Translations under genes and position numbers: made by a program | Shown here: positions 1 to 11,157 of the stretch, one piece after another | Numbering within the stretch: position 1 is the first letter of the stretch | Layout of the letters: every line of letters starts with the position of its first letter | Assembly (NCBI GenBank): GCA_965649115.1 | Contig: CBFGJN010000060.1 | Location: 1-11,157, forward strand | Direction: 5' to 3' | Length of the DNA stretch: 11,157 nucleotides | From: a candidate division WOR-3 bacterium | GTDB lineage: Bacteria > Hydrothermota > Hydrothermia > LBFQ01 > DSFT01 | The notes under the pieces: generated by a model | Database searches by the model: none | Seen by the model: only the letters and a program-made list of their open reading frames with translations | What the model was told of the DNA's origin: nothing

Positions 1-231
1 GCCTTCGGCTTACAAATTCCCATATTTAGGCTATGGGGGGCAAAGCCCCCCTTAATCCCCCCATTATTTCAAGTATTTCAATGAATTTTTTATAAGTGAT
101 TGATTATCAATCACTTAACAATAATTATTGGACAAAGCGGCATTTTCATGTTTTGTCTAGTAATTCTGAAATATAGATTATTTCTTATTTTGCCCGCCCA
201 CCCTGAAAATAGGGAGCTTTGCCCCCTTCCA
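1..231 (-). repeat. Copy of ~214-bp modular palindromic repeat (inverted relative to the array at 10580-11157; runs off the left edge)
   Basis: The reverse complement reads TCAGGGTGGGCGGG (206-193), inverted repeat AATTACTAGACA..TGTCCAATAATT (165-123), perfect palindrome TAAGTGATTGAT-N-ATCAATCACTTA (93-117), hairpin GGGGGGC-TTT-GCCCCCC (35-51) and GCC-GAA-GGC (1-9). Positions 99-138 match 11064-11103 at 39/40 as reverse complement. Confidence 0.95.
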
Positions 232-1515
232 TTAAAACCATCCAATAAAATCTTCAAATTTCATTCCTCTTGAAGCTTTTAAAATAATTCTTCTAAATTT
301 TTTTGAATAAATTTTAAGAAATTCAAAAGCCTTTTCTTTATTATCAAAATAATAACAATTTATTTTACCTTTAAGCTCCTCATAGGTCCATCTAACGAAA
401 TTCCCTACAAATATAAAATTATCATGTCCTAAATCTAAAATCAATTTGCCAATTTGTCTATGATAAAATTCTGAAAACTCTCCAAGTTCAAGCATATCAC
501 CAATTATAAATAAATTCTTTTTACTTGGTTTTATAGAATAAAGCAATGCTCTCAAAGAATAAGGATTTGAATTGTAGGCATCATTTATTATTTCAAAACC
601 ATTAATTTTTAAAACTTCCATTCGCATACTTTCAGACTTAAAATTTTTCAAAAATTTATATGGTTCTTCTATATTGAAAAATTCGCAAACTTTCAATACA
701 CATATGGCATTTTCAAGCCATCCATAGTTTGGAAAATCAATATAATCTCCATTATTTAGAATAAGTCTCACTCCAACTTCAAGAAACTCATATTTATAAT
801 CATTAATATCAAATGTTATAATTTTTTTAGGCTTTTTCATAATTTCGTAAAATTTCAAATAATCTTCTTTTCGCATAAAACCAACATCTGCAAATTTAAA
901 TATATTACTCTCTTCAATAGCAATATTTTCCAAAGATTTAAAAAATTCAATATGTTCAACTTCTATATTTGTTAAAATTGAATATTTTGGTTTTGCTATA
1001 TTAACTAAAAATTCAACTTCACCAATATGATTTGTTCCAATTTCAAGAATAAGAAATTCTGCTTCTCTTGGTGTATTTAGAATTGTTAAAGGAACACCAA
1101 TATGATTGTTATAACTCTTTGGACTTTTATAAGTTTTATAGAAATTTGAAAAAACTTTAAATAACATTTCCTTTGTTGTAGTTTTACCAACTGCCCCACC
1201 AACTGCTATTATTTTCGTTTTATTCAAGTAGTTATCTCTATAAAATTTAGCTATTTCAATTAAAGCATTTAAAGGTTCTTTAACTTTTATAATTTGATTT
1301 AAATTCTTACTGAAATTTTCAGAAACAATACATCCAACTGCTCCTTTATTCAAAGCATCTTCTACAAAATCTTCACCGTTGAATTTTTCACCTTTTAATG
1401 CAATAAATAAATCTCCTTCCTTTATTGTTCTACTATCAGTTGAAAATCCTATAACTTCACTGTCATCTCCAATTAATTCTGAATTTAAAATTTTTGCTAT
1501 TTCAGAAAGTTTCAT
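232..1515 (-). CDS. murF: UDP-N-acetylmuramoyl-tripeptide--D-alanyl-D-alanine ligase
   Basis: 427 aa with Mur-ligase motifs: STDSR..GDLFIALKGEKFNG, P-loop GAVGKTTTKE, SYNNHIGVPLT, LEIGT, INDAYNSNP, GDMLELG and C-terminal KASRG. Confidence 0.95.
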   Translation of the reverse strand: MKLSEIAKILNSELIGDDSEVIGFSTDSRTIKEGDLFIALKGEKFNGEDFVEDALNKGAVGCIVSENFSKNLNQIIKVKEPLNALIEIAKFYRDNYLNKTKIIAVGGAVGKTTTKEMLFKVFSNFYKTYKSPKSYNNHIGVPLTILNTPREAEFLILEIGTNHIGEVEFLVNIAKPKYSILTNIEVEHIEFFKSLENIAIEESNIFKFADVGFMRKEDYLKFYEIMKKPKKIITFDINDYKYEFLEVGVRLILNNGDYIDFPNYGWLENAICVLKVCEFFNIEEPYKFLKNFKSESMRMEVLKINGFEIINDAYNSNPYSLRALLYSIKPSKKNLFIIGDMLELGEFSEFYHRQIGKLILDLGHDNFIFVGNFVRWTYEELKGKINCYYFDNKEKAFEFLKIYSKKFRRIILKASRGMKFEDFIGWF

Positions 1516-2144
1516 TCTTCAATATAACTCATCATATTCATAAAGAAGAAAATCAATGACCAGAAAAAGTAGTGATACTGATTGTTTAAAAGGTACAAAG
1601 GATCTCCAACAAAAAAGAAAGAAAATGCTAAAAATCCCAAAAGCCACCTTTTACCTAAATCACTACCAAGATATAATAAAACATTAGCAAGAAGAATAGC
1701 AAAATTTAAATTAAGAACTATTAAAAATAAGTAATCAATAGTCGTTTTTAGATAAATTGAAAATATAAAACTTAAAGATATTGAAACAATAAGTCCAAAT
1801 AACCAAATAATTGTTTTTTTTCCTTTCAATTCAAGACCTTGCTTCAAAAGACCTACAAGCATAAAAGCAAGCGTGAAGGTCAAATAAAATCTTGATATTA
1901 AATGCAGAATTTTTGAATAAAATAACTCAGATATTGGGAAAAATAAACCGTTTAAAGAAAGCAATATCCAAAATCTTCCTCTGAGATTATCAAATCCTAA
2001 TATAAAAGCCTTTCTTAAAGATGAAATTAAAAAGAGAAAACATAGAAGAATAAATGAAATCCTTGAAATTTCAATGTTATAAAAAATCCCCCATACTCCT
2101 AAAAGAACTGAAACGATATTTAAAATTCTCAATATCCAAACCAT
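1512..2144 (-). CDS. Hypothetical polytopic membrane protein
   Basis: 210 aa with about 7 hydrophobic segments. Its stop overlaps the murF start (ATGA, 1512-1515). No family recognised. Confidence 0.75.
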   Translation of the reverse strand: MVWILRILNIVSVLLGVWGIFYNIEISRISFILLCFLFLISSLRKAFILGFDNLRGRFWILLSLNGLFFPISELFYSKILHLISRFYLTFTLAFMLVGLLKQGLELKGKKTIIWLFGLIVSISLSFIFSIYLKTTIDYLFLIVLNLNFAILLANVLLYLGSDLGKRWLLGFLAFSFFFVGDPLYLLNNQYHYFFWSLIFFFMNMMSYIEE

Positions 2145-4548: not shown

Positions 4549-4884
4549 TTAGCAAGAATTTTCTAAAACACTCCAATAACATTCAATTCCATTTTCTCTT
4601 AAAATATCACATAATGTTGAACTTCTAATTCCATCAGAACAAGTTATAAAATAAATGTTATTTTTGTCAAATTTTTCAAGATTTTCAAGATAATAAAAAA
4701 AATCATCATTACTTTTAATTTCAATATGAACATAAGGCTTATTTAAGTTTTTTCTCAAATAAATTAGCATCTCTATTGGAATGGCTTTTAAGTTTTTAAT
4801 ATAAACACCATTTATTTCAGCACTTTCAAGATTTTCCAAAATTTTTCTATTCTTTTCTAAATCTTCAATACTTAAAATTGTCAT
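4549..4884 (-). CDS. Small rhodanese-like domain protein
   Basis: 111 aa. YFITCSDGIRSSTLCDILRENG fits the rhodanese active-site loop (C-x-x-G-x-R-S) followed by L..G. It is divergent from the next gene. Confidence 0.65.
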   Translation of the reverse strand: MTILSIEDLEKNRKILENLESAEINGVYIKNLKAIPIEMLIYLRKNLNKPYVHIEIKSNDDFFYYLENLEKFDKNNIYFITCSDGIRSSTLCDILRENGIECYWSVLENSC

Positions 4885-4888
4885 ACCT

Positions 4889-4898
4889 TAAAATTTTA
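4889..4898. promoter_or_regulatory. Palindromic TAAAATTTTA: overlapping -10 boxes for the two divergent genes
   Basis: It gives TAAAAT on + (4889-4894) and on - (4898-4893, 8 nt from the ATG at 4884) within a 26-bp gap between ATGs at 4884 (-) and 4911 (+). Confidence 0.45.
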
Positions 4899-4910
4899 GA
4901 GCTTAACGAT

Positions 4911-5246
4911 ATGGTTATAATATCATATGATATATCGCTTTTGAGAGCAGAAATGGAACAACTTGCAAAAGAAAAAAAGTCTATTGTTCTAAACCCAGAT
5001 AACCAAGCACTTTTATATATAAAAAAGCACAAACCAAAAGTAATCATTTTAGATATATCTTCCGCTGAAAGTTTATTATATGAAATTTATTTAGCTATAA
5101 AAAATGAAATTCCAGATGCAAAATTCATTATTACAGGATTTCAAAAATTCTTAAAAGGAAAATTTGAAGAAGTTGAAGGATTTAAAGTATTTCCTTACAA
5201 TAGCAAAAAAATTAAACAAATTTTAAAAGAGCAATTTAAATTATGA
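4911..5246 (+). CDS. Stand-alone atypical CheY-like receiver-domain protein
   Basis: Alternating beta/alpha pattern with ALLYIKKHKPKVIILDIS (beta3 Asp) and PDAKFIITG. The acidic pair and the K-P motif are degenerate (KVFPY). Start placed at ATG 4911 because the TTG at 4878 overlaps the divergent gene's start. The stop overlaps the lysA start. Confidence 0.6.
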   Translation: MVIISYDISLLRAEMEQLAKEKKSIVLNPDNQALLYIKKHKPKVIILDISSAESLLYEIYLAIKNEIPDAKFIITGFQKFLKGKFEEVEGFKVFPYNSKKIKQILKEQFKL

Positions 5247-8100: not shown

Positions 8101-8110
8101 GTTCATTTTT

Positions 8111-8170
8111 AGAATTATTGATTTGCCCCCCAAAATAAATAGTTTTGGAATTACTAGACAAAGCATATAA
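8111..8170 (+). repeat. Truncated fragment of the ~214-bp repeat
   Basis: 8132-8166 matches 10808-10842 at 31/35. 8149-8166 is the exact reverse complement of 10850-10867. TTTGCCCCCC (8122-8131) resembles the right half of the GC hairpin. Confidence 0.85.
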
Positions 8171-8193
8171 ATACATTTATCATCCTTTAAAAT
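8155..8193 (+). promoter_or_regulatory. Putative sigma70-type promoter for glmU-gatA (TAGACA-17 bp-TATCAT; alternative -10 TAAAAT)
   Basis: TAGACA at 8155-8160, exactly 17 bp, then TATCAT at 8178-8183 (each 5/6 to consensus). A second TAAAAT at 8188-8193 lies 9 nt before the TTG start. Confidence 0.5.
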
Positions 8194-8202
8194 TTTAAAA
8201 CT

Positions 8203-9165
8203 TTGGAGCGTTATCCATTAGCTTGTATTATTTTAGCAGGTGGAAAATCAAAAAGAATGAAATCAAAAAAAAGTAAAGTATTACATAAACTTTGTGGAAA
8301 ACCTATAATAAGCTATTCAATTAAAGCTTGTAAAAGTTTAATTCCGGATGAACTATATATTGTAATCGGTCAAAATAGTGAAGATATAAAAAATGTTGTA
8401 AATGATGATAATATCGTTTTTGTCTATCAGAATGAGCCTCTTGGAACAGGCCATGCAGTTATGCAAGTCATTCCCTACATAAAAAATAAAGATATGGATG
8501 TTTTAATAATGCCAGCTGATGTTCCGTTAATAAGAATAGAAACGATAAAAGAATTATATAAATTTCATAAAGAAAATGATGCTATTGTTAGTATTTTAAC
8601 AACAGAAATACCAGATCCAACAGGATATGGAAGAATAATTAGAAGTAGTGGAAATAGAGTTCTGATGATTGTAGAAGAGGCAGATGCTTTTCCCGAAGAA
8701 AAACAAATAAAAGAAATAAATTCGGGTATATATATATTTGAAAGTAATATCTTAATTGAGGCGTTGAGTGAAATTAAACCTGATAACAAACAAGGTGAAT
8801 ATTATTTAACGGATGTTATTGCTATTATTCAAAGAAAATATGGAGGTGTTTATGCTTATAAGATAACTGATTGGAAAGAAATTATAGGTATAAATACAAG
8901 AGAACAGTTATCTCAAGCTCACTTAATTTTACAAGAAAGAATAATTAAAAAACATTTGGAAAATGGTGTTAGTATATTATTCCCGAACCTTGTCTATATA
9001 GAAGAAGATGTCATTATTGAAAATGATGTAGTAATTTATCCATTTGTTTCAATTCTTGGTAATAGTTATATTAGTGAAGATTGTGAAATTGGTCCTAATG
9101 TTGTTTTAGAAAATTACAAGACTAAGAAAGGTGAAATTATAAGAAATGCTTATTTAAAAGGATGA
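8203..9165 (+). CDS. glmU: GlmU-like UDP-N-acetylglucosamine pyrophosphorylase (N-terminal domain plus a short beta-helix stub)
   Basis: IILAGGKSKRMKS..KVLH, Q.EPLGTGHAV, ADVPLI, DPTGYGRIIR, IVEE.DA, EINSGIY, NKQGEYYLTD and GINTREQL. Only 320 aa, with few hexapeptide repeats. TTG start. Confidence 0.82.
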   Translation: MERYPLACIILAGGKSKRMKSKKSKVLHKLCGKPIISYSIKACKSLIPDELYIVIGQNSEDIKNVVNDDNIVFVYQNEPLGTGHAVMQVIPYIKNKDMDVLIMPADVPLIRIETIKELYKFHKENDAIVSILTTEIPDPTGYGRIIRSSGNRVLMIVEEADAFPEEKQIKEINSGIYIFESNILIEALSEIKPDNKQGEYYLTDVIAIIQRKYGGVYAYKITDWKEIIGINTREQLSQAHLILQERIIKKHLENGVSILFPNLVYIEEDVIIENDVVIYPFVSILGNSYISEDCEIGPNVVLENYKTKKGEIIRNAYLKG

Positions 9166-10562
9166 CCGTTTTAGAACTTTTAAAACTTTTAAGAAAAAGG
9201 GAAATAACACCATATGAATTAATTTTAGAGTACATTAAAGTTATTGAAGAAAAGGAAAATGTTTATAATGCATTTATTAATGTTTATAAGGAAGAGGCTA
9301 TTAGGAAAGCATTAGAACTTTCAAGACAGGATCCTGATAATTATTTGTTATATGGAATTCCAATTGGTATTAAAGATAACATAGCTGTTGAAAATATGGA
9401 ATTAACTTGCGGTTCAAGAATTTTACTTGGATTTAAATCTCCTTACTCTGCAACTGCTGTTAAAAGATTAATAAATGAAGGTGCAATAATTATTGGAAAA
9501 ACAAATTTGGATGAATTCGGAATGGGTTGCTCTACGGAATTTTCTTACTTTGGACCTACAAAAAATTCTATAAATCCTGAATATGTTGCTGGTGGTTCTT
9601 CTGGTGGTTCAGCAGTTGCTGTTAAAATTGGAGAATGTGCTATTTCCCTTGGTTCAGATACGGGAGGCTCAATAAGACAACCTTCTGCATTTAATGGACT
9701 TGTTGGACTTAAACCAACTTATGGTAGGGTTTCAAGATATGGTCTTGTGGCATTTGCTTCAAGCTTAGACCAAATTGGACCAATTGGATTAAATGTTAGA
9801 GATGTAGCATATATTTGGACAATAATTTCAGGATATGACCCAAAGGATAGTACAAGTGTAAATATTCAAGTTGAAAAATTTGATGAAATTTTTAGATTTA
9901 AAAAGTACAAAATTGGCATTCCAAGAGATATTATTACCGATGATGTTGATAAGGAAATAAAAGAAGGTTTTGAATATGCTATAAAAAAACTTATAGATAT
10001 GGGTCATATTGTTGAGGATATTAAATTAGATTATTGGAAATATGCATTAAGTGTTTATCATATAATAAGCTCATCAGAAGCAAGTTCAAATTTATTAAGA
10101 TATGATGGGATAAGGTATGGTTATAGAGCTGATGGTGATGATTTAATTGAAGTTTATTTCAAGACAAGAAGTGAAGGATTTGGTGATGAGGTTAAAAGAA
10201 GAATTTTAATTGGAACGTTTTGCTTATCCTATGGATATTATGATGAGTACTATATAAAGGCAAGTAAGGTTAGAAGGTTATTAAAAGAAGATTTTATTAA
10301 TGCCTTTAAGAATGTTGATGTTATAATTACTCCAACAGTTCCAACATTTCCTTGGAAAATTGGAGAAAGAATAGATGACCCTATGAAAATGTACTTAGCG
10401 GACATTTATACTGTTCTTGCTAATTTGGTTGGTATTCCTGCAATTTCAGTTCCTATACAAAAGGCAAAAAATGGTTTTTATATTAATTTACAAATCATGG
10501 GGAATTATTTTAGAGAAGCTGATATTTTAGATTTAGCAGAACAAATTTTTTATGATAAATAA
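9162..10562 (+). CDS. gatA: Asp-tRNA(Asn)/Glu-tRNA(Gln) amidotransferase subunit A
   Basis: Amidase signature GIPIGIKDNI, GKTNLDEFGMG, GGSSGGSA and GSDTGGSIRQP, plus GatA-typical SEASSNLLRYDGIRYG and RSEGFGDEVKRRILIGT. The start overlaps the glmU stop (ATGA). Confidence 0.95.
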   Translation: MTVLELLKLLRKREITPYELILEYIKVIEEKENVYNAFINVYKEEAIRKALELSRQDPDNYLLYGIPIGIKDNIAVENMELTCGSRILLGFKSPYSATAVKRLINEGAIIIGKTNLDEFGMGCSTEFSYFGPTKNSINPEYVAGGSSGGSAVAVKIGECAISLGSDTGGSIRQPSAFNGLVGLKPTYGRVSRYGLVAFASSLDQIGPIGLNVRDVAYIWTIISGYDPKDSTSVNIQVEKFDEIFRFKKYKIGIPRDIITDDVDKEIKEGFEYAIKKLIDMGHIVEDIKLDYWKYALSVYHIISSSEASSNLLRYDGIRYGYRADGDDLIEVYFKTRSEGFGDEVKRRILIGTFCLSYGYYDEYYIKASKVRRLLKEDFINAFKNVDVIITPTVPTFPWKIGERIDDPMKMYLADIYTVLANLVGIPAISVPIQKAKNGFYINLQIMGNYFREADILDLAEQIFYDK

Positions 10563-10579
10563 TTCGTCAAGTAAATTTT

Positions 10580-11157
10580 ATTGAGGAATTTAATGGAACA
10601 AAGCCCCCCCAAATGCAAACAGGAAGACTTAGTTATAGGGTGGTTGGGGAAAATATAATAAAATACTAGACAAGGCATTAAAACTTTGCAAGGTTATGAA
10701 TTTTTAATGGAAACTATTGATTTTATGGGGGGTTGCCCCCCGTAGGCAAAAGTTGGGGTTTTTATAAGCCGAAGGCTTATATTCAGGGTGGGTTGGAAAA
10801 ATAAAGAAAAATAAATAGTTTTAGAATTATTGGACAAGGCATCCATAAAATGCTTTGTCTAGTAATTATTGTTAAGTCTTTGATTATCAATAACTTACGA
10901 AAATTTTACTGAAAATATAGATTTTGGGGGGGAATTTAAGGGGGGCGGAGCCCCCTTCAGCAGAAAAATGGGAATTTATAAGGCTCCGCCTTATTATCAG
11001 GGCGGGTGGGAAAAATAAGAAATAATTATACTTCCAGAATTACTAGACACAGCACCATAAATTGCTTTGTCCAATAATTATTGTTAAGCGATTGATAATC
11101 AATAATTTATAAAATTTTTAAGGAAATTGTTGATTTATTGGGGGGATTATTAGGGGG
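10580..11157 (+). repeat. Tandem array of the ~214-bp modular palindromic repeat (degenerate partial unit, 148-bp deleted unit, full 214-bp unit, unit truncated by the window edge)
   Basis: Unit anchors are ATAGGGTGGTTGGGG at 10635, TCAGGGTGGGTTGG at 10783 and TCAGGGCGGGTGGG at 10997 (spacings 148 and 214). Long inverted repeats at 10825-10867 and 11038-11079, palindromes at 10873-10897 and 11085-11109, hairpins at 10724-10744, 10763-10781, 10941-10955 and 10978-10994. Confidence 0.95.

What the first reader, a model, noticed from the sequence alone, without database searches (positions are those of the whole stretch)
10580..11157. Unrecognised ~214-bp multi-palindrome repeat family forming tandem intergenic arrays
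Seen: each unit has a fixed module order of GGGYGGG box, A-rich linker, ~43-bp inverted repeat, 25-bp TAAG..TTGATWATCAA..TTA palindrome, G-run, GC hairpin and a second triloop hairpin. It occurs in tandem here, inverted at 1-231 and as a fragment at 8111-8170. The GC-rich modules stand out in very AT-rich DNA, and no transposase, recombinase or cas gene is nearby. Known: REP/BIME/REPIN elements and MITEs are non-autonomous palindromic repeats moved in trans, but I do not recognise this sequence or architecture as any of them. Inference: a dispersed non-autonomous element, an array of structured ncRNA units, or a multi-site protein-binding platform with a partner encoded elsewhere.
Basis: partly seen in the sequence, partly recalled or inferred. 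Interest (0 to 1): 0.85.

Follow-up and report, generated by a model that had tools for sequence, protein, structure and literature searches.

The report
Stacked miniature transposons between genes
The repeat is a roughly 205-base non-coding jumping element, moved by an IS903-like transposase encoded elsewhere, that piles up head-to-tail at a fixed distance upstream of gene promoters in an uncultured hot-spring bacterium.

Summary
The repeat family is real and very abundant. nhmmer finds 437 loci covering 95.9 kb, 5.2% of a 1.85-Mb genome with 27.6% G+C.

Its "43-bp inverted repeat" is the junction of two neighbouring elements: a 3' end, 9 spacer bases, then a 5' end.

The true element is a MITE (miniature inverted-repeat transposable element):
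- It is 204-206 bp long with 17-bp terminal inverted repeats.
- It has 9-bp target duplications, perfect in 80 of 191 elements and in 0 of 190 controls.

The partner is a multi-copy IS5-family, IS903-like insertion sequence, collapsed at about 26 contig ends.

Arrays arise by independent insertions. Neighbouring copies are no more alike than random pairs.

Outermost 3' ends lie 20-21 bases before a host promoter-like motif in 134 of 301 cases. The IS right end follows the same rule, and the rule recurs in a second genome.

Nothing supports an RNA gene or a REP/RAYT system.

This scan had already reported the same MITE, parent IS and promoter spacing on other contigs of this genome. I re-derived these results independently. 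The library searches I ran turned up no published description.

Verdict: a new variant of a known kind, of moderate-to-high interest.

The parts
10596..10677 (+). Decayed MITE copy lacking its 5' part. It keeps the right half of the GC hairpin, a degenerate small hairpin, the G-box and a shortened linker, and ends in the 3' terminal repeat at 10677.
   Evidence: Sequence read; 3' end mapped (looser end list).
10678..10686 (.). 9-bp spacer between two abutting copies.
   Evidence: Genome-wide, the spacer is exactly 9 bp in 83 of 102 junctions.
10687..10841 (+). 155-bp internally deleted MITE copy with a degenerate 5' terminal repeat and no 25-bp palindrome. It holds the GC hairpin 10727-10741 and the small hairpin 10767-10781. 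The 3' terminal repeat ends at 10841.
10842..10850 (.). 9-bp spacer.
10851..11054 (+). Intact 204-bp MITE. Its parts are: 5' terminal repeat 10851-10867; 25-bp palindrome 10873-10897; G-run 10926-10932; GC hairpin 10940-10955; small hairpin 10979-10993; G-box 11000-11010; A-rich linker; 3' terminal repeat 11038-11054.
   Evidence: Ends mapped; sequence; fold.
11055..11062 (.). 8-bp spacer, one base shorter than and otherwise nearly the same as the spacer at 10842-10850.
11063..11157 (+). MITE copy cut off by the contig end.
   Evidence: One search shows that 84 of 198 contig ends lie in the repeat.
1..139 (-). MITE copy on the minus strand, cut off by the contig start. Its 5' terminal repeat occupies 139 down to 123.
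140..148 (.). 9-bp spacer.
149..228 (-). 5'-truncated MITE remnant on the minus strand, with its 3' terminal repeat at 165 down to 149. It abuts the stop codon (232-234) of the Mur-ligase-like ORF 232-1515.
8109..8165 (+). Decayed MITE fragment with an internal deletion and no 5' end. Its 3' terminal repeat is 8149-8165.
   Evidence: At the same place a related genome (L039) holds a full copy with a perfect 9-bp duplication.
8166..8174 (.). The promoter-side copy of the 9-bp target.
8185..8196 (+). Host promoter-like motif. Its 8-mer core starts 21 bases after the MITE end, and the start codon of ORF 8203-9165 lies 18 bases after its first base.

Best explanation
The repeat is a family of miniature inverted-repeat transposable elements (MITEs).

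Each element is about 205 bp and non-coding. It is bounded by 17-bp terminal inverted repeats and flanked by a 9-bp duplication of its target.

It is moved in trans by the DDE transposase of a roughly 1.05-kb IS5-family insertion sequence of the IS903 type. That IS carries the same ends and is present in many near-identical copies, so the assembler broke contigs at it.

Insertion is directed by distance and orientation relative to a host promoter-like motif, not by the 9-bp target sequence. The element's right end lands 20-21 bases (less often 12-15) upstream of the motif core.

Each insertion duplicates the 9 target bases and so recreates the same target next to the promoter. Later insertions therefore go into the same site and push older copies upstream.

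Shown here: the ends, the duplications, the spacing, the orientation, the independence of neighbouring copies, and the family of the transposase.

Inferred: that the motif is a promoter, that the spacing reflects targeting rather than survival, the size of the complete IS, and any role of the internal palindromes.
For: - Re-phasing. Array 3' ends cluster at HMM columns 61-75 in 201 of 350 internal arrays, and flanks read directly show direct repeats.
- Strand-specific recount. There are 324 5' ends, 409 3' ends and 198 two-ended elements with modal length 204-206 bp. The flanking 9-mers are identical in 80 of 191 elements and match 8 of 9 in another 14. In a control shifted by 12 bases, 0 of 190 reach 7 of 9. 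Spacers are exactly 9 bp in 83 of 102 junctions.
- Array patterns. Both X-E-X-E-X and X-(E-Y-E)-X are seen, where E is an element and X and Y are flanking or spacer 9-mers.
- Independent insertion. Neighbouring copies are 75% alike and random pairs 75.3% (27 pairs and 150 pairs).
- Age. 59 of 192 elements have a twin at 95% identity or more, and 7 have one at 100%.
- Partner IS. About 10 contig ends carry one IS end and 13-16 carry the other. Both begin with the MITE's terminal repeat and are 98-100% identical among copies.
- Transposase in this genome. The N-terminal 56 residues hit NF033579, IS5 family, at E 3e-5.
- Full-length relative P0001 (300 aa). It is 92% identical to that N-terminus. 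Its last 14 residues and stop are encoded exactly at the other contig ends.
- P0001 family assignment. It scores 245.5 bits on NF033579 against a cut-off of 140 and carries PF01609 plus PF13737. It aligns over 96% of its length with IS903 and IS903B transposases at 26.6% identity.
- Known IS903 features. An IS903-family element in L175 is 1057 bp with 18-bp perfect ends that share 13-15 of 19 terminal bases with the MITE and parent IS ends. IS903-group elements of Paracoccus are 1050-1054 bp with 9-bp duplications (PMC3281130, passages of Table 2).
- Host motif. Its 10-mer occurs 657 times against 55 expected. A start codon lies 15-19 bases downstream in 264 of these.
- Spacing. The motif core starts at +20 or +21 after 134 of 301 outermost 3' ends and at +12 to +15 after 43. 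After outermost 5' ends it does so in only 7 of 217.
- The IS follows the same rule. Its right end has the motif at +20/21 in 9 of 16 cases and its left end in 0 of 10.
- The target itself. The 9 target bases carry at most 0.14 bit each.
- Orientation. 143 of 153 arrays between co-directional genes point with the genes.
- Second genome. In 30 loci (29 from G002, 1 from G003), 17 of 34 elements have duplications matching 8-9 of 9, the control gives 0 of 34, and the motif lies at +20 to +22 in 14 of 26.
- Presence/absence between relatives. The relative L039 has no array after gatA, and a full copy where the window has a fragment.
Against: - The complete IS was never seen in this genome. Pfam searches of the contigs for PF01609 and PF13737 found nothing. 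A search for long elements bounded by the terminal repeats found only MITE dimers and two pairs with imperfect 7-of-9 flanks (445 and 845 bp) that I did not inspect. The IS length of about 1052 bp is a sum of fragments plus the length of P0001, which comes from another source.
- The MITE shares only about 15-24 terminal bases with the IS ends available. It is therefore not a simple deletion derivative, and mobilisation by this transposase is inferred from the shared ends and shared insertion rule.
- 97 of 191 two-ended elements have fewer than 8 of 9 matching flanks. Part of this is explained by arrays and decay.
- 107 of 301 outermost 3' ends have no exact motif within 80 bases.
- That the motif is a promoter is inferred only from its position. 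No transcription start data were available.
- Both arrays named in the finding run off the contig, so their promoter-side ends are not visible in this window.
Confidence: 0.87

Rival explanations
1. The elements are MITEs that insert anywhere in AT-rich intergenic DNA. On this view the sharp spacing and single orientation reflect survival: only insertions that leave the promoter intact, and do not send harmful transcription or termination into neighbours, persist.
For: The genome is compact, with 87% in long ORFs by a crude call, so many positions would be harmful. Insertion at the observed place keeps the 9 bases next to the motif unchanged. 107 of 301 outermost 3' ends have no exact motif within 80 bases.
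Against: Positions further upstream of promoters should be equally harmless, yet 134 of 301 ends fall on two adjacent positions. The near-identical, presumably young IS copies already obey the rule, 9 of 16 right ends. Reuse of the same 9 bases within stacks needs a positional cue.
Confidence: 0.12
2. The arrays grew by local tandem duplication (slippage or unequal crossing-over between the 9-bp direct repeats or between copies), not by repeated insertion.
For: Several arrays have identical 9-mers at every junction, which slippage between the flanking duplications would also give.
Against: Neighbouring copies are no more alike (median 75%, 27 pairs) than random pairs (75.3%, 150 pairs). In the window, copies 10851-11054 and 11063-11157 are about 77% alike. 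Arrays of the form X-(E-Y-E)-X also exist, where E is an element and X and Y are flanking or spacer 9-mers.
Confidence: 0.05
3. The units are structured non-coding RNAs, or RNA-level elements of untranslated regions, kept in the sense orientation because they act in transcripts.
For: There is a strong orientation bias with the flanking genes, 143 of 153. The small hairpin keeps pairing through swapped pairs: C-G 257 and G-C 114 at one position. The fold is stable, z -5.5.
Against: Rfam gives no match; the best is E 0.96, far below threshold. The opposite strand folds as well, z -5.7. G:T and A:C mispairs in stems are about equal: 422/525, 275/366, 194/150 and 23/31. GC-hairpin loops occur as reverse-complement pairs (58/38, 42/17, 33/28, 21/15), as expected of flipping DNA palindromes. 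No terminator-like site was found. The orientation bias is explained by the insertion rule.
Confidence: 0.04
4. It is a REP/BIME/REPIN-like family moved by a RAYT (Y1, HUH) transposase that cuts hairpins in single-stranded DNA.
For: The elements are GC-rich hairpins in intergenic arrays with a strand bias.
Against: No PF01797 match was found in the genome, while the control genomes ring. Fixed 9-bp target duplications and terminal inverted repeats are hallmarks of DDE transposition, not of Y1 elements. The partner found is a DDE enzyme.
Confidence: 0.02

Closest known systems
IS903 group of the IS5 family, and MITEs derived from such elements
   Same: The transposase is a DDE enzyme of NF033579 with PF01609 plus PF13737. 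It aligns end to end with IS903 and IS903B transposases. The target duplication is 9 bp (PMC3281130 Table 2 passages). The estimated size of about 1.05 kb compares with 1057 bp for the IS903-family element in L175. The terminal repeats of 17-18 bp share 13-15 of 19 bases with that element.
   Different: Protein identity is only about 27-30%. The host is an uncultured thermophile of Candidatus Hydrothermia. Insertion is oriented at a fixed distance from a promoter-like motif. The MITE interior is unrelated to the IS ends seen. Copy number is extreme, 5% of the genome.
TnGBS conjugative elements and the ISLre2 / ISKra4 insertion sequences (prokaryotic Mutator-like transposases)
   Same: These insert in one orientation at a fixed distance upstream of promoters: 15-17 bp upstream of the -35 box of sigma-A promoters, with the right inverted repeat next to the promoter (PMC3942029, abstract and passages).
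   Different: The transposase family is unrelated. P0001 has no Mutator-like domain in Pfam. The reference point here is a -10-like motif close to the start codon, and the outcome is stacks of MITEs.
REP / BIME / REPIN elements with RAYT transposases
   Same: Both are short GC-rich palindromes clustered in intergenic DNA in mosaic arrays.
   Different: REP elements have no terminal inverted repeats or fixed target duplications, and their partner is a Y1 enzyme. Here a 9-bp duplication is present and no Y1 gene was found.
Correia/NEMIS and other bacterial MITEs
   Same: Both are non-coding, about 100-300 bp, have terminal inverted repeats and target duplications, occur in hundreds of copies, and lie between genes.
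   Different: Here the target length and ends differ, copies stack in tandem with reuse of one target, and spacing to a promoter-like motif is fixed.

Membership tests
MITE (non-autonomous DDE-type element) | Terminal inverted repeats | tested here: met
   The 17-bp ends are conserved at 79-97% in the first nine positions, with lower conservation further in. In the window they lie at 10851-10867 and 11038-11054.
MITE (non-autonomous DDE-type element) | Target-site duplication of fixed length | tested here: met
   The flanking 9-mers match 9 of 9 in 80 of 191 elements and 8 of 9 in 14. The shifted control has 0 of 190 with 7 or more. In the second genome 17 of 34 match against 0 of 34 in the control.
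MITE (non-autonomous DDE-type element) | Small, without coding capacity, many dispersed copies | tested here: met
   The modal length is 204-206 bp. No ORF of 60 aa or more lies in the arrays. There are 437 loci on most contigs.
MITE (non-autonomous DDE-type element) | An autonomous element with the same ends encodes the transposase | tested here: inconclusive
   IS ends with the same terminal repeat, and the first 56 and last 14 codons of an IS5-family transposase, lie at about 26 contig ends. The interior is not in the assembly, and the full protein is known only from the relative P0001.
MITE (non-autonomous DDE-type element) | Presence/absence differences between related genomes | tested here: met
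   The family is abundant in G000 and G002. G003 has 2 matches, G001 has 1 weak match and G004 has none, all in the same genus. There is no array after gatA in L039.
IS5 family, IS903 group (the partner) | DDE transposase of the IS5 type | tested here: met
   P0001 scores 245.5 bits on NF033579 against a cut-off of 140, and carries PF01609 and PF13737. The genome's own N-terminal fragment hits NF033579 at E 3e-5.
IS5 family, IS903 group (the partner) | 9-bp duplication, about 1.05 kb, terminal repeats of about 18 bp like those of IS903 | tested here: met
   The duplication is shown. The ends share 13-15 of 19 bases with an annotated IS903-family element of 1057 bp. The length of about 1052 bp is inferred from fragments, not assembled.
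REP/BIME/REPIN with RAYT | Y1 (HUH) transposase partner and no target duplication | tested here: not met
   PF01797 was not found in the genome (94.5% complete) while 6 control genomes ring. Duplications are present.
Described RNA family (Rfam) | Match to a covariance model at or above its gathering score | tested here: not met
   The only match is Clostridiales-2 at 19.6 bits against 58.6, E 0.96.
Promoter-targeting Mutator-like elements (TnGBS, ISLre2, ISKra4) | Mutator-like transposase with the signature tied to promoter targeting | tested here: not met
   Pfam finds only IS5/IS4-type DDE domains in P0001. The resemblance is in behaviour only.

The most novel reading that the evidence does not exclude
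An IS5/IS903-type DDE transposase reads the host's -10-like promoter motif, or the RNA polymerase bound to it at leaderless genes, as a molecular ruler. It inserts in one orientation exactly at the upstream edge of the promoter. The MITE's interior (GC hairpins, G-box, palindrome), which is foreign to the IS, would then have been kept because it insulates or tunes the promoter. On this reading the stacks in front of about a quarter of such promoters are partly domesticated regulatory cassettes and not mere parasites.
Probability: 0.25. Interest if true: 0.8.

Novelty: new variant of a known kind. Interest (0 to 1): 0.6.

Why it matters
The finding turns an unexplained "multi-palindrome repeat" into a defined mobile element with a testable rule.

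[quoted passage not shown] Showing it for an unrelated IS5-type enzyme would give a second, independent solution to how a transposon avoids genes.
- **How the arrays form.** The rule explains how head-to-tail MITE arrays with constant 9-bp spacers arise.
- **Use for annotation.** The element marks promoters and probable leaderless starts in a phylum with very few cultured members (one WOR-3 isolate appears in a listed abstract).
- **Use for assembly.** It accounts for much of the fragmentation of this assembly, since 84 of 198 contig ends lie in the MITE and about 26 in the IS.
- **Possible tool.** A thermophilic transposase with a positional rule could also be useful as a tool.

Tried and rejected
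- **Rfam.** A scan of the whole window at E up to 1 gave one chance-level match.
- **Transposase families in the contigs.** PF01797, PF01609 and PF13737 gave no match. The genome is 94.5% complete and repeats are collapsed, so this does not show absence.
- **Full-length elements.** A search for long elements bounded by the terminal repeats with matching flanks found only MITE dimers and two pairs with imperfect 7-of-9 flanks (445 and 845 bp), which I did not inspect.
- **Multi-copy segments.** Ten ORFs in the longest multi-copy DNA segments were scanned in Pfam. They are ordinary paralogues (peptidase, ankyrin, Uma2, methyltransferase and others), none a transposase.
- **Transposase loci elsewhere in the class.** 20 PF01609 loci were scanned for the terminal repeat, and 0 of 20 carry it.
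- **Weak blastn hits.** Hits of the unit in G021, G037, G040 and G001 were read and dismissed as chance.
- **Terminators.** The terminator scan of 10500-11157 found none.
- **Age gradient.** In 27 neighbour pairs the promoter-side copy was nearer the consensus in 15 and the distal copy in 12. This is inconclusive, and decayed copies without both ends were left out.
- **Sequencing runs.** Only assembled contigs were available.
  - They give no depth, strand or transcript ends.
  - One RNA-library contig matches window 11062-11145 exactly. Its loose-end sequence overlaps the flank printed for the copy at C4:35710.
  - DNA carry-over cannot be excluded, so I draw no conclusion on transcription.
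- The distribution outside the 64 genomes of the class searched here therefore remains unknown.
- **Not run.** I did not predict a structure for the transposase, because it would not decide any claim made here.

Full report
**Observation.** The window is a whole 11,157-base contig (C60) of a 1.85-Mb assembly in 99 contigs with 27.6% G+C.
They recur with a 212-213 base period to the contig end, on the other strand at 1-231, and as a fragment ending at 8165.
- blastn of the unit finds 101 matches in the genome.
- Iterated nhmmer finds 1018 hits in 437 loci, 95,894 bases or 5.2% of the genome, and each profile position is covered 400-670 times.
- 84 of 198 contig ends lie in the repeat, and only 3% of repeat bases lie in long ORFs.
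- The window's ten larger ORFs are housekeeping genes or have no Pfam family; none is a transposase.
- The closest named relative of the gatA product, at 94% identity, is a MAG titled Candidatus Hydrothermia. Public runs that hold the stretch are mostly labelled hot-spring metagenomes.

**Re-phasing.**
- Array 3' ends fall at profile columns 61-75 in 201 of 350 arrays that do not touch a contig end, and many 5' starts fall at columns 51-70.
- Reading the flanks showed that the element starts with the right arm of that inverted repeat and ends with the left arm. It is then flanked by direct repeats of 9 bases.
- The two arms vary independently at two linked positions (C·A 97, T·G 89, T·A 58, C·G 50 at one pair). 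This fits two ends of different copies, not one hairpin.

**Counts.** My first counts included some junctions twice, because the junction is palindromic and was also hit on the other strand. The strand-specific recount gives:
- 324 5' ends, 409 3' ends and 198 elements with both ends, with modal length 204-206 bp.
- Flanking 9-mers identical in 80 of 191 elements and matching 8 of 9 in 14. In a control moved 12 bases outwards, 0 of 190 reach 7 of 9.
- A spacer of exactly 9 bases in 83 of 102 junctions between abutting copies.

**The partner.** Pfam searches of the contigs for PF01797, PF01609 and PF13737 found nothing. No long element bounded by the repeats was found. The multi-copy genes are not transposases.

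After I had reached the MITE reading, the scan's earlier notes said a parent IS exists in this genome, so I looked for terminal repeats whose inner side is not MITE.
- About 26 contig ends stop 100-127 bases inside one of two sequences that begin with the terminal repeat. Ten are of one kind and 13-16 of the other, and copies are 98-100% identical.
- One kind holds the start of an ORF whose first 56 residues hit NF033579 (IS5 family) at E 3e-5.
- A search of the protein collection for longer relatives gave P0001: 300 aa, 92% identical to that N-terminus, named transposase by its source.
- The last 14 residues and stop of P0001 are encoded exactly at the other kind of contig end.
- P0001 scores 245.5 bits on NF033579 (cut-off 140) and has PF01609 and PF13737.
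- Adding 67 bases before the start, 903 of ORF and 82 after the stop gives an IS of about 1052 bp. This is inferred, not assembled.
- P0001 aligns over 96% of its length with transposases annotated IS903 and IS903B at 26.6% identity, and with ISVa1 and ISAba10 at about 29-30%.
- An annotated IS903-family element (L175) is 1057 bp with perfect 18-bp ends. These share 13-15 of 19 terminal bases with the MITE and parent IS ends.
- IS903-group elements captured in Paracoccus are 1050-1054 bp with 9-bp duplications (PMC3281130; I read the passages around the term, including Table 2).
- The MITE shares only its first 15-24 and last 13-18 bases with the IS ends available.

**Where it lands.** Flanks of 3' ends often hold one motif just before a start codon.
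- Its 10-mer (window 8185-8194) occurs 657 times against 55 expected. A start codon lies 15-19 bases after its first base in 264 cases. I read it as a -10-like promoter of leaderless genes; this is an inference.
- The 8-mer core starts at +20 or +21 after 134 of 301 outermost 3' ends and at +12 to +15 after 43. After outermost 5' ends the figure is 7 of 217.
- The IS right end shows the motif at +20/21 in 9 of 16 cases, and three others abut MITEs. The left end shows it in 0 of 10.
- 178 of the 657 motif sites have a MITE 3' end 5-21 bases upstream.
- The 9 target bases carry at most 0.14 bit each, whereas the motif is sharply defined. The cue is therefore distance to the motif, not the target sequence.
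- In regions between co-directional genes, 143 of 153 arrays point with the genes. 99 arrays lie between divergent genes and 48 between convergent ones.

**How arrays form.** Junction 9-mers often equal the outer duplications, the pattern X-E-X-E-X, where E is an element and X and Y are flanking or spacer 9-mers. Dimers moved as a unit, X-(E-Y-E)-X, also occur.
- Neighbouring copies are 75% alike and random pairs 75.3%, so arrays are not local duplications.
[quoted passage not shown] The same 9 bases are left at the same distance, ready for the next insertion, and stacks follow.
- My test of whether promoter-side copies are younger gave 15 against 12, which is inconclusive.
- The family has old and young members. 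Median identity to the consensus is 84%. Median nearest-neighbour identity is 90.7%, 59 of 192 elements have a twin at 95% or more, and 7 have one at 100%.

**In the window.** The right-hand array is, in order: a decayed copy, an internally deleted copy, an intact copy (10851-11054) and a copy cut by the contig end.
- Its spacers are 9, 9 and 8 bases, and the last two are nearly identical.
- The left-hand array is a remnant next to the stop codon of the Mur-ligase-like gene plus a copy cut by the contig start.
- Both arrays run off the contig, so their promoter sides are not seen.
- The fragment ending at 8165 obeys the rule. The motif core starts 21 bases later and the start codon of the next gene is at 8203.
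- In the relative L039 the same site holds a full copy with a perfect 9-bp duplication, and gatA is followed at once by a convergent gene without any array.

**Distribution.** At blastn level the family is abundant in G000 and G002. G003 has 2 matches and G001 has 1 weak match. G004 has none. Three chance-level hits occur among 36 other genomes of the class. In 30 loci (29 from G002, 1 from G003) the duplications (17 of 34 against 0 of 34) and the spacing (14 of 26 at +20 to +22) recur.

**The palindromes.**
- The small hairpin keeps pairing through swapped pairs (C-G 257, G-C 114; also G-C 371, A-T 13) with several loops.
- The GC hairpin's loops occur as reverse-complement pairs: 58/38, 42/17, 33/28 and 21/15.
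- G:T and A:C mispairs are about equal in all stems, both strands fold equally well, and there is no terminator-like site.
- This is what DNA palindromes do. It gives no support to an RNA gene, and their role, if any, is unknown.

**Literature.**
- Oriented insertion 15-17 bp upstream of sigma-A promoters is described for TnGBS and the ISLre2 and ISKra4 groups, which have Mutator-like transposases (PMC3942029; abstract and passages).
- Search listings showed no paper on such elements. The searches were: Hydrothermae and genome (18 papers, 10 listed, titles and abstract starts seen), WOR-3 and MITE (0 papers), head-to-tail MITEs with target duplications in bacteria (4 papers, none bacterial by title), and insertion sequences upstream of promoters (2 papers).
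- Subscription journals are not in the library, and I read no supplement.

**Earlier work of this scan.** Notes on other contigs of this genome already describe the MITE, its IS5-type parent, the promoter spacing and the stacking. I reached the MITE, duplication and IS903-like reading before reading them, and I took from them the lead to look for the parent IS in this assembly. I re-tested the spacing, the stacking and the hairpin claims. The claim that the newest copy lies nearest the gene was not confirmed by my small test.

**Verdict.** The thing is a MITE of an IS903-like IS5-family element. Its extreme abundance, promoter-anchored oriented insertion and stacking make it a new variant of a known kind.

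Noticed in passing
window 8185-8196; also the reverse-strand copy near 2146-2176; genome-wide: A 10-mer promoter-like motif occurs 657 times against 55 expected. A start codon lies 15-19 bases after its first base in 264 cases. This suggests that very many genes of this organism are leaderless, with a strongly conserved extended -10-like box and no visible Shine-Dalgarno sequence.
   Followed up: partly
G000 contig ends, e.g. C1:1-126, C29:1-126, C71:1-127, C43:1-126, C6:49961-50086: About 26 contig ends stop 100-127 bases inside a near-identical IS (both ends). The IS interior is missing from the assembly, and the true copy number is probably 13 or more.
   Followed up: yes
GC hairpin of the element, e.g. 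window 10940-10955 and 10727-10741: The three loop bases occur genome-wide as reverse-complement pairs at comparable frequency: 58/38, 42/17, 33/28 and 21/15. It looks as if the loop flips between the perfect arms.
   Followed up: partly
outermost 3' ends genome-wide: There is a second, smaller peak of spacing. The motif core starts at +12 to +15 after 43 of 301 ends, about 7-8 bases closer than the main peak. This is unexplained.
   Followed up: no
G000:C39:5159-6183 and C35:5393-6417; C24:9357-10502 and C35:2845-3951; C21, C23, C46: Several gene families are present as diverged paralogues at 82-90% DNA identity. They include tandem pairs of Uma2-type putative restriction endonucleases, an ankyrin-repeat protein and a methyltransferase.
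   Followed up: partly
window 4549-4884 (-), 4878-5246 (+) and 1512-2144 (-): Three ORFs of 111, 122 and 210 aa have no Pfam family. The first two are divergent and overlap by 7 bases at their starts.
   Followed up: no
window 11062-11145 and G000:C4 near 35710: The copy at the window's right end is identical over at least 60 bases to copies at C4:35710 and C40:3613, which points to a young subfamily. A contig from an RNA library matches window 11062-11145 exactly, and its loose-end sequence overlaps the flank printed for the C4 copy. This is not proof of transcription.
   Followed up: no
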